Below, in pieces: positions 16,201-19,200 of a stretch of DNA of 64,000 bases (the first letter of the stretch is position 1; each line of letters opens with the position of its first letter). The position numbers and the translations under genes are program-made. Source of the stretch: Podarcis pityusensis (taxonomy: Eukaryota); assembly GCA_964106645.2 (NCBI GenBank), contig OZ067050.1; one strand, given 5' to 3'. The notes beneath the pieces were generated by a model. That model did no database searches, was not told the DNA's origin, and saw nothing but the letters and a program-made list of their open reading frames with translations.

Positions 16201-19200
16201 GGTCAAGCAGTGGCGATTGAATATCGAATTTAGAACCTCCATATTCAGAGGCAGCCTATCCCTCCAAGGAAATGGAGCACTGGATGGAAAACAGACCCCC
16301 ACTGTTGGGCCAGATGGATGAGGAGAGGTGGGTGCCTGACTCCCAAGAACTCTCCAGGGAGGGCTTTGAAGATGACACCTTAGAGCCTGGAGCCTGGTGG
16401 TGGGACACTGAGGAACAGTCAGCAGAAAGGATAAGCTGGGAGCTGAGAGAAGCAGGAGACTTGAGAGATCAAGGGGGGGGGGTCAGGAGAAGGAGGGCCT
16501 TCCAGGACAGGGTTAGAAGCTGAGAGTCGCAGCATGCATGCAGACAGTCCCAGTCCTCCTGACTCTTCTCCCACTCTGACTCCCTGCTTGAGGAGTGCCA
16601 GACAGACCCACAGGAGGAGCCCACCCCCTGCTTGGGAGTGATCCAGAGTGAGAGGCTAGAGGGGAGGGGCATGGCTAGAGCTTAGTTTCAGCAAAGCCTT
16701 CGTTGAGTTGAGATGAACTAAAGGACATTGCTGTGTTGTTGTTGTTTTTCTGCTAATAAAAAGCTAATCACATTCCATGCCTTCTGTGTGTGTGCCTGCC
16801 CTGTGGATGTCCTGGCTTGTTGACAGCCACCCTACACCCCAGTGCTAGGAAGTTCTCCAACCTAAATCTAAGTTAAATGGAAAGAAGCTACAGAAAACCA
16901 CTGCTTCCTTCTTGAACGTATCCTATTCATTTTATTGAGGCTTTCGCAGGAGAACTTCCCAGCGGATCATACCCCATGAGCCAAATCCGTTTGTCTGCTG
17001 TGGCCGTTCAGGAATGCAATGAGGACCCTTACCTGGGGCTGAGGTCTGGGGTTCCGTAGTTCATGAGGGAGGGAATGAGGAGCTTGCCAGGTTTCCGGCC
17101 ATTGCTGCCCTCATCAGAGAGCTGCACCTCCCGGCGACACTGCGGAGAGGGGCTACGGCCTCGGTTGCAGTGGGCTGGGGAGCGACAATTTCGCCGCAGG
17201 GCGGAGAACTGGCGCAGGTCATCTCCTAGCAGGCTGCTGAAGGAGCCGCGCCTCACGGGGCTGTTGAGATTGGGCAAGAGGAGTTTGCGGCGGGTGATGG
17301 TGGCTGGCGAGGGCTGGAAGAAGTCCTCAGAGTCTTCGCCATATTCCTGGATGGAGGGCAGGGGCTTTTCGGGGGCAGCGCCACTTTCAAGGTGAGGCTA
17401 AACAAGAGGGAGGGAAGGAAGAAGATTCAGAAGATGGAAAGGCAGCTTTCTTATAGGTGAGGCTTAAATCACATTTAATAAACTTAGATGTATGACCATC
17501 TGATCATTGTTTAGGTGGAGAGTATCAATCTGTCATGCAAATAAGCATTTCAAACTAGTTCATATCTGCACCGCAAGCCAGGGTGAAATGCTCTTAGCCC
17601 TCGGGCTTTCAGGTGTAGGAGAAATAATTTAGGAGAATGCAAACTCAAGTTTTTGCAAGCAACTTACGAACAAAGTTAAGATTTTTATTTTATTTTTATT
17701 TTTTGCTTCCTGAGATCCCACCCACTCAGCCAATTTCATGTTGGCTGTAATCAATGCAGTTTCTCCCAGCCCTGTGCCCTTCTGTTCCTGCAGCAAAAAA
17801 GTTACCTGGGATAAACGTGGGGACCTGGAGAATCGGAGAAGTCCCTAGAAAGGAAAACAGCAACAACAACACAATCAAACAAGAAAGACTGGGTAGCTCT
17901 TTCAGAGTCTATCAGGGTTGTTGCCTCAAAGCTGACCATTCTTGGTTGCCAGACTGACGACCACCCAATCAAAAGCTGAAGAGACAGATGCCATTTCACC
18001 TTGGTTCTGGCCCCTCTAGGAAGCATCTCCTGCACCATCTTGGCACAAACTGACAACCATGCATTGTTTTGAGCAGGAGCTAGAGCGCACTCCTCTCCTG
18101 TGGGTGCCAGCAACTAGTATTTGCTGTGCCCATAGTCCCTGGAGACAGGGCACAACCTCCAGCCATCATGGCAAGACTTGGGGAGAATGAAGCTTGCGAT
18201 GGAAGGTTCTGCCTCCCTCCTTATGTGTGTCCATTACAACATATGCAGAGAACCCCCATGCTCTACTGAATACACACAAGGCAGATTAGAGTCCACCTCT
18301 CCTCTTTTTCCCATGCACATTCATTCCACCCGTCTTCATTCTGCCTATATTTTCCTCCTCTGCTCATTAAGCGCCCTTTCTATCTATTTGCATTCCACCT
18401 CCCACACCATTCTAGGGATGGACAAACTTCCATGTGCTACAGCAAAGTATCAAGAGGGCAGGCAGGGATAGGGGGAGAAAGTTCAGGGGAATGGGGGTGG
18501 GCATTGTGATGACAGATGGGAGCAATGAGGTGTGGCGGTGGGCGAGGGAGGGCAGGATTGTATCGGGAGGCGGGGTGGGCACACGACCTTTCACCTCTAG
18601 GTCACTGGTTCGAATGTAGCCCAGGCCGGTAGTGCCCAAAGCATGTTACCATCCGACGGCTGTTGGAGAGCCTACGGGCGTTTACTGGCTGGTCACGGTC
18701 TTGGTCCTAGTGGACAAAAACCACCATCACAATCAGCAGGGTGGGTAGGTGGGTAAGTTCAGCCGAGGGGAAACTGTAGACGGAGGAGGACACAAACAGG
18801 AGGAGAAATGCAGTGGGGAGGAAGTGACCTGGTGCGTTGAACCAAGAGTGAACTGTACTGGAGGAGAGGATGGGGGCAAAACTGGAACGAGTTGGTTCTG
18901 CTTGCAACGGGTACAATGGGCACCAGCCGCTGTTGCCTCTAGGCGTATTTTCTCTTGCTTAAAAACACCTTATGGGGGATGCTACATTCTGTTCTTAGTT
19001 ACAGCAATGTCCATATATGACAAGAGTTGAAGCGTTGCTTCCTGGGAGGTGTGAAGTCTAACAGCAGAGGAAACGGAAAGTAAGGGGAGGCGATGTGGCC
19101 TCAGCCTAAAATGAGTGACTGAGCGATGCAGTCAGCAGTTGTTCATGTTTAACAGCTCTTAAAAATAAACCTCCATTGGACTTGTGGCTTAGTAAACAGG

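What the first reader, a model, noticed from the sequence alone, without database searches (positions are those of the whole stretch)
18560..18770. Ancient LF-SINE antisense in KCNH4 intron 11: candidate dual-outcome cassette/poison exon or enhancer
Seen: a well-preserved, CpG-retaining LF-SINE segment. On the KCNH4 strand it offers an acceptor GTTTTTGTCCACTAG| (exon start 18706) and two donors. ATG|GTAACA gives a 57-nt in-frame exon (18650-18706) in this phase-0 intron, encoding [19 protein letters not shown] with an RRxS PKA-type site just after the CNBHD. GAG|GTGAAA gives a 112-nt exon (18595-18706) with an in-frame TGA (18602-18604), which would be an NMD target. Established: LF-SINEs are ~400 My old, and surviving tetrapod copies are often exapted as enhancers (ISL1) or antisense exons (PCBP2), many of them NMD-inducing. 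Inference: this copy is under selection and regulates KCNH4.
Basis: partly seen in the sequence, partly recalled or inferred. Interest (0 to 1): 0.75.

Follow-up and report, generated by a model that had tools for sequence, protein, structure and literature searches.

The report
Ancient retroposon stop-exon in lizard KCNH4
A piece of an ancient jumping element inside a lizard potassium-channel gene is conserved in geckos and an anole, where database gene models splice it in as an extra exon ending in an early stop, so it likely acts as an off-switch that lowers the amount of full-length channel.

Summary
Mostly confirmed, and sharpened. Window 18576-18733 is the 5' half of an LF-SINE, antisense in intron 11 of KCNH4 of a wall lizard. 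It has 34 sibling matches in the genome and aligns to the PCBP2/uc.338 copy. The predicted acceptor (18706) is used in 7 database isoforms from five geckos and Anolis sagrei (7 of 304 KCNH4 proteins with the exon-11 landmark). Five read to the same stop as the window's frame, at 79-88% peptide identity, as conserved as coding exon 13. Two use earlier frame-shifting donors into exon 12. None uses the 57-nt in-frame donor, so the "dual-outcome" and PKA-site ideas are unsupported. Every annotated use breaks the frame or stops it just after the CNBHD. Best reading: a conserved, minor poison exon that lowers full-length Kv12.3 by nonsense-mediated decay (inferred, 0.55). Main rival: an alternative last exon making a short channel with a retroposon-derived tail (0.25). 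No lacertid annotation or laid RNA contig shows the spliced exon, and decay, tissue and enhancer activity are untested. New member of a known kind (exonised LF-SINE); not found in the papers searched.

The parts
18576..18733 (+). 5'-half relic of an LF-SINE (element sense on +, antisense to KCNH4); first ~40 nt and 3' half absent
18602..18706 (-). Exonised reading frame: 34 codons plus [37 protein letters not shown], in frame with exon 11
   Evidence: 27-30 of 34 residues identical in four geckos and Anolis sagrei isoforms
18707..18740 (-). 3' splice site region: U-run plus CTAG acceptor, and a branch-point-like CTGAT. The AG is ancestral in the family; the U-run is specific to this copy
   Evidence: sibling majority reads GGACACCTGTCTACTAG, window GGTTTTTGTCCACTAG; branch point is by recalled consensus only
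18589..18597 (-). Donor GAG|GTGAAA closing the 112-nt stop-containing exon; use not shown by a joint
   Evidence: one RNA-guessed contig ends exactly at 18595, two others read through it
18670..18678 (-). Early phase-1 donor CCC|GTAGGC (31-nt exon); the equivalent position is used in the Gekko kuhli model
   Evidence: (P0133)
18644..18652 (-). In-frame donor ATG|GTAACA (57-nt exon); present, but no isoform uses it
   Evidence: 0 of 304
22074..22289 (-). KCNH4 coding exon 11 (end of CNBHD, ...[12 protein letters not shown])
17806..17844 (-). KCNH4 coding exon 12 (39 nt, [13 protein letters not shown])
   Evidence: exon 11 to exon 12 join in 3 of 4 runs
18450..18594 (-). Pyrimidine/C-rich downstream flank with 9 YCAY and 9 YGCY motifs; candidate splicing-regulatory region, untested
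   Evidence: YCAY count reached by 12 of 2343 windows across the gene, but p 0.08 against shuffles; YGCY p 0.003, one of 18 uncorrected tests

Best explanation
This is an LF-SINE relic that gecko and anole gene models splice into KCNH4 after exon 11, and it likely works as a poison exon that sends part of the mRNA to nonsense-mediated decay. Shown: the element, its conservation across lizards, acceptor use in six species' gene models, and loss of the normal frame in all 7 such models. Inferred: the family's antisense strand already offered the AG, the donors and the TGA; this copy gained a U-rich acceptor tract and then froze before geckos, lacertids and anoles split. On inclusion the stop lies 7 nt before the 112-nt donor but 412 nt before the exon 13/14 junction, so the message would be an NMD target. 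The short phase-1 donors put a stop at the start of exon 13 with three exons still to come. Most transcripts skip the exon, so it would act as a dial on full-length Kv12.3 level, by tissue, stage or activity (not tested).
For: Same acceptor in 7 isoforms from 6 species and two annotation sources. Three different 3' ends are used, and all three leave the normal frame; the in-frame donor is used in 0 of 304. Two models (P0154, P0133) splice on into exon 12, so the exon can be internal. Tail identity 79-88% against 78-85% for exon 13 and 60-66% for exon 16; a toy neutral model gave 0 of 600 runs at 29/34 or better for 0.2 substitutions per site. No AATAAA or ATTAAA between the stop and exon 12. 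One contig ends exactly at the 112-nt donor (weak). Known pattern: 11 of 19 LF-SINE exons add an early stop (PMC9148063 passage). Human KCNH4 has calcium-regulated PTC isoforms in the C-terminal region (PMC2374990 passages).
Against: NMD was not observed. The five full-tail isoforms are annotated as proteins, and their 3' ends were not seen. No joint from the exon to exon 12 in 4 laid runs, and contigs in X1 and X2 read through the 112-nt donor. No isoform in five lacertid species, in A. carolinensis or in any snake examined. All length changes seen keep the frame (gecko +1 codon, anole -1 codon, one contig -5 codons), which a pure poison exon does not require. The four gecko RefSeq models may not be independent if one annotation fed the next. 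The G. kuhli model regains the frame only by running on past the exon 12 donor.
Confidence: 0.55

Rival explanations
1. Alternative last exon (or NMD escape): the exon yields a stable mRNA for a roughly 712-aa Kv12.3 that keeps the PAS, pore and whole CNBHD but swaps the distal C-terminus for a 34-aa retroposon-derived basic tail.
For: 5 of the 7 isoforms are this protein. All Pfam domains are retained in P0137 and P0155. The tail is as conserved as exon 13, with frame-keeping indels, and 5 of the 7 CpGs sit in Arg codons. Contigs read 51 and 175 nt past the 112-nt donor. The paralogue KCNH2 makes a C-truncated isoform from a non-canonical intronic poly(A) signal (PMC7829756).
Against: Only variant poly(A) hexamers lie downstream (18388, 18351, 18340, 18325). 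Two models use frame-shifting donors that discard most of the tail. Amino-acid changes are mostly non-conservative (N/I, H/R, C/M). No listed substitution of any kind fell in the exon in three lacertid-like runs, against 7 in the flanks (5 further differences were not placed), which fits DNA-level constraint.
Confidence: 0.25
2. The copy is conserved as a DNA or RNA cis-element (enhancer or splicing control of exon 12), and the splicing into it is leakage through the family's ready-made sites.
For: The acceptor AG, both donors and the TGA are ancestral family features. CpG retention could reflect low methylation. LF-SINE enhancers are known (PMC7786948, PMC3899998 passages). Only 6 of about 41 squamate species seen have the isoform.
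Against: The demonstrated conservation begins at the acceptor and keeps the frame to the stop. The copy-specific change improves the acceptor tract. The same acceptor is found in distant lineages.
Confidence: 0.12
3. In-frame 57-nt cassette adding a 19-aa phosphorylatable linker to full-length Kv12.3.
For: The donor exists and the joined frame is open.
Against: 0 of 304 proteins; five isoforms read through it; 5 of 9 matches to the U1 consensus; no joint.
Confidence: 0.05
4. Neutral relic with noisy splicing.
For: Not annotated in lacertids; identity to the family majority is only 5th of 30 copies.
Against: 27-30 of 34 residues kept between lacertid, geckos and anole, far above the neutral model; 7 CpGs kept.
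Confidence: 0.03

Closest known systems
Exonised LF-SINE copies (Bejerano et al. 2006; PCBP2/uc.338 exon)
   Same: Same element family, antisense in an intron, alternative exon, early stop as in 11 of the 19 reported exons.
   Different: Uses the 5' half of the element; the PCBP2 and SMARCA4-like exons in this genome come from the 3' half and are in frame (gene names recalled). Host is an ion channel. Seen only in squamates so far. The original list of 19 exons was not seen; from recall KCNH4 is not on it.
Conserved poison exons of neuronal channels (SCN1A 20N, SCN8A 18N)
   Same: Conserved stop-containing alternative exon in a voltage-gated channel gene (listing, 64 passages).
   Different: Here it derives from a retroposon, has several donors, and NMD is not shown.
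KCNH2 Kv11.1a-USO C-terminal isoform
   Same: KCNH family; a truncated form made at the expense of full-length channel.
   Different: USO arises by intron 9 polyadenylation and is non-functional; it cuts within the CNBHD (recalled). Here a new exon is spliced in after the complete CNBHD, and no poly(A) site is shown.
LF-SINE-derived ISL1 enhancer
   Same: Same family, neural gene context.
   Different: No enhancer evidence here; the evidence is for splicing.

Membership tests
LF-SINE | Homology to established LF-SINE copies | tested here: met
   Element aligns, same orientation, to the 5' continuation of the over-cut-off uc_338 hit L032 (107/150, score 55 vs shuffle max 34; 1 of 10 loci clearly). 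The sibling profile hits L032 at E 2.6e-6 outside the seed. A sibling match lies 127 nt from another uc_338 hit on C4. A profile of the 10 uc_338 loci did not hit the window.
LF-SINE | Direct match to the Dfam/Repbase LF-SINE model or coelacanth consensus | not testable with these tools
   No such library held; agreement with the consensus is from recall only.
LF-SINE | Dispersed, old, low-copy repeat in tetrapod genomes | tested here: met
   35 matches vs 1 control; siblings about 68-87% identical over the longer alignments.
LF-SINE | Full length with tRNA-derived head and 3' half | tested here: not met
   Only about 155 nt remain; head and uc.338 half absent. It is a truncated relic, as many siblings are.
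Exonised LF-SINE | Antisense insertion whose splice sites are used in transcripts | tested here: met
   7 database isoforms in 6 species join exon 11 to the element. These are predicted models; for lacertids no junction was seen.
Poison exon (AS-NMD) | Inclusion creates a stop more than 50-55 nt upstream of a later junction | tested here: met
   412 nt to the exon 13/14 junction; short donors stop at the start of exon 13. Holds only if splicing continues downstream.
Poison exon (AS-NMD) | Internal cassette use (donor spliced to the next exon) | tested here: inconclusive
   Shown in models for two short donors (P0154, P0133); not shown for the 112-nt donor.
Poison exon (AS-NMD) | Isoform stabilised when NMD is blocked | not testable with these tools
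   No such data available.
Alternative last exon | Poly(A) site downstream of the stop | tested here: inconclusive
   Only variant hexamers; read-through contigs of depth 2-3 could be nascent RNA or DNA.
Enhancer | Open chromatin or reporter activity | not testable with these tools
   No chromatin data.

The most novel reading that the evidence does not exclude
Squamates make a stable, translated short Kv12.3 whose last 34 residues come from an antisense LF-SINE. It would keep the whole sensor and pore but lack the distal coiled coil, acting as a distinct channel or regulatory subunit: a retroposon-built C-terminus held under selection since before geckos and other lizards split.
Probability: 0.25. 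Interest if true: 0.68.

Novelty: new member of a known kind. Interest (0 to 1): 0.52.

Why it matters
It adds an ion channel to the short list of genes that took an exon from LF-SINE, and from the less used 5' half of the element. It gives a precise, testable handle on how Kv12.3 level or form is set in reptiles; the fish orthologue kcnh4a affects sleep (search listing). It also shows that predicted isoforms usually dismissed as noise can mark a deeply conserved exon. The mechanism class is known, so the gain is a new case rather than a new principle, unless the truncated protein proves real.

Tried and rejected
Rfam scans of the region gave nothing above chance, including no uc_338 match, because this copy lacks that half. 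DNA search of the genome with the 181-nt element found only itself, so a short pattern was used. A profile from the 10 uc_338 loci missed the window. A search of cluster representatives with the gecko tail alone found nothing, and with CNBHD plus tail found 62 proteins, none covering the tail; tail-bearing isoforms are hidden as cluster members. The HMMER search with the 34-aa frame returned one hit, P0250, a 29-fold concatemer that looks like a sequencing-adapter artefact (adapter identity recalled); rejected. Run search: no RNA holder listed on record; the RNA labels are guesses. Stretches without contig cover are not used as evidence. The 15-nt gap in one X11 contig is flanked by a 5-nt direct repeat, lacks GT-AG ends and has depth 3.3; it may be an artefact. 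RNA folding of the exon region is unremarkable (z 0.15). No UGCAUG, and no PTB-motif excess. Metagenome scan for the copy-specific core found 0. The RRxS site was rejected as evidence, since the in-frame isoform is not seen. No DNA of geckos, snakes, turtles, birds or mammals could be read, so dN/dS and the age of the insertion stay open.

Full report
Setting. The window holds KCNH4 (Kv12.3) on the minus strand. Exon 13 is 100% identical to Podarcis raffonei KCNH4 and 98% to P. muralis, so this is a wall lizard or a close lacertid. Mapping the P. muralis protein gives 16 coding exons; the element lies between exon 11 (ends 22074) and exon 12 (17844-17806), a phase-0 intron.

Is it an LF-SINE? 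A 20-mer from the element has 35 matches in the genome against 1 for the reversed control. Thirty were fetched, one being this copy. The 29 siblings share the sequence from about 40 nt upstream of this copy's start to beyond its end, and several are only short matches (output cut, and 16). A profile of the 29 hits the window once, at 18581-18732, E 4.8e-23. To tie the family to a named LF-SINE I searched the genome with Rfam uc_338: 16 matches, 2 over the cut-off. The best, L032, encodes the PCBP2 alternative exon (gene name recalled). The window's element aligns to the sequence just 5' of that match, in the same orientation (107/150, score 55, shuffle maximum 34); only 1 of the 10 loci did so clearly. 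The sibling profile hits L032 at E 2.6e-6, outside the seed. A profile built from those 10 loci missed the window, as expected if most lack the 5' half. No Dfam model was available. The copy is a 5'-half relic of about 155 nt.

Is it under selection? It keeps 7 CpGs in 112 nt (siblings: median 1, maximum 5; observed/expected 0.75 against 0.21 and 0.13 in the flanking intron). The stronger evidence came from proteins. None of the best 120 of 184 homologues carries an insert from the element, but these are cluster representatives. Opening 30 clusters (at most 15 members listed each) gave 326 stored proteins, 304 with the exon-11 landmark. Seven continue from EIE into DQDR. RefSeq isoforms of Euleptes, Sphaerodactylus, Heteronotia and Paroedura (729 aa) and Anolis sagrei (711 aa) run to the same stop as the window's frame, with 30, 28, 29, 29 and 27 of 34 residues identical. 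In the same species exon 13 is 78-85% and exon 16 is 60-66% identical (four species; the Heteronotia isoform compared lacks exon 16). My toy neutral model reached 29/34 in 4.5% of 600 runs at 0.1 substitutions per site and in none at 0.2 or more; the true neutral distance was not measured. The core is unique to this copy in the genome. Against the sibling majority the exon differs at 31 of 95 scored bases (6, 11 and 14 by codon position), so it changed early and then froze.

How is it spliced? All seven models use the predicted acceptor. Five read through the 57-nt donor to the stop. A. sagrei X3 (701 aa) leaves after about 22 nt and enters exon 12 out of frame, stopping at the start of exon 13. 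The Gekko kuhli model leaves after about 34 nt, the position of the window's 31-nt donor, also out of frame (nucleotide lengths inferred from the peptides). No protein has the 19-aa insert followed by exon 12 (0 of 304). NCBI's pipeline, as described for a 2014 annotation, keeps alternative variants only with support from one long alignment or RNA-seq of one sample (PMC5737279 passage), so these are probably transcript-backed, but the four gecko models could share evidence. The isoform is absent from the five lacertid species, A. carolinensis, all snakes, and all turtles, crocodilians, birds and amphibians listed; it appears in 6 of about 41 squamate species seen. Mammals were not among the proteins retrieved. 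The AG, both donors and the TGA are family features (the last two lie in the seed and so are biased); the U-run before the acceptor is specific to this copy.

RNA contigs. Four of 20 listed runs were laid on 17720-18900; their RNA status is a guess, and contigs drop rare forms. The skipping join, exon 11 to exon 12, appears in X2, X9 and X11. No joint involves the element. Low-depth contigs cover it in X1, X2 and X11. Two read through the 112-nt donor (by 175 and 51 nt), two are unspliced at the acceptor, and one ends exactly at 18595. Seven placed substitutions all fall in the flanks, none in the exon; five more were not placed. These data neither show nor exclude inclusion in lacertids.

Mechanism. 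Every annotated use leaves the normal frame seven residues after the FNL motif that ends the CNBHD (role of the motif recalled; domains). If splicing continues, the stop is 412 nt upstream of the exon 13/14 junction and the mRNA would be degraded. That three different exits all break the frame, while the in-frame exit is unused, favours a poison exon (0.55). The frame-keeping length changes, the Arg-codon CpGs, the read-through contigs and the KCNH2 precedent (PMC7829756, abstract and Introduction) keep an alternative last exon with a short channel alive (0.25). A cis-element with leaky splicing (0.12), the in-frame cassette (0.05) and neutrality (0.03) follow. What controls inclusion is unknown; the downstream flank is rich in YCAY and YGCY motifs, but this is weak.

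Comparison with print. A review reports 19 LF-SINE exons, 16 alternative and 11 with early stops (PMC9148063, passages). The 2006 source paper is not held, so its list and supplements were not seen and could bear on novelty. Other papers were seen as passages only: PMC7786948, PMC3899998, PMC4255032, bioRxiv 10.1101/2025.03.14.643233, PMC2374990 (calcium-regulated PTC isoforms of human KCNH4 by exon skipping, a different event), PMC7174612, PMC8652244; a term search in PMC13398235 gave nothing relevant. Searches for LF-SINE with KCNH and for KCNH4 with poison exon returned 0 papers; the listings showed nothing on this exon. Most subscription papers are outside the library, and no supplements were opened.

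Verdict. A real, conserved, exonised LF-SINE in lizard KCNH4, present without comment in predicted isoforms. New member of a known kind; interest 0.52.

Noticed in passing
window 19359-19380 (minus strand): In run X1 a contig joins exon 12 to 22 nt matching this place, with a GC donor (AAG|GCAGGT), at depth 6.0 against 7.8 for the other exon-12 contig; further upstream it does not match the window. Possibly a second alternative exon in intron 11.
   Followed up: partly
L011 (G000:C10:47045359 region): This sibling LF-SINE copy matches, by eye, contigs of 212-1153 nt in 3 of 4 laid runs (X2, X9, X11), so it may be transcribed.
   Followed up: no
L032 and L033, around locus position 1500-1690: The two over-cut-off uc_338 matches are open in-frame exons in genes that look like PCBP2 and SMARCA4 (names recalled); eight weaker copies (L034-L041) were fetched, one of them (L040) reading like a spliced PCBP2 copy.
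   Followed up: partly
window 17806-17844: Exon 12 (39 nt) is skipped in frame in several database isoforms (Pogona X2, Carettochelys X2, a plover, a gull), so this junction is a splicing hot spot.
   Followed up: no
window 17694-17700 (minus strand): Two AATAAA hexamers in an A-rich run in intron 12; a frog model (P0222, 698 aa) ends just after exon 12.
   Followed up: no
gecko proteins P0134, P0136-P0138, P0146, P0147, P0149: These carry about 16 extra residues upstream of the CNBHD end (landmark at 683, not 667); all four 729-aa truncated gecko isoforms have them.
   Followed up: no
window 20700-20850: tRNA-like head with a repeat tail, probably a younger SINE in the same intron (weak Rfam tRNA match at 20781-20840).
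   Followed up: no
window 18773, 18828, 18852, 18857 (minus strand): Upstream AG sites with pyrimidine tracts of 65-90%, richer than the used acceptor's 60%; none is used in the seven isoforms.
   Followed up: partly
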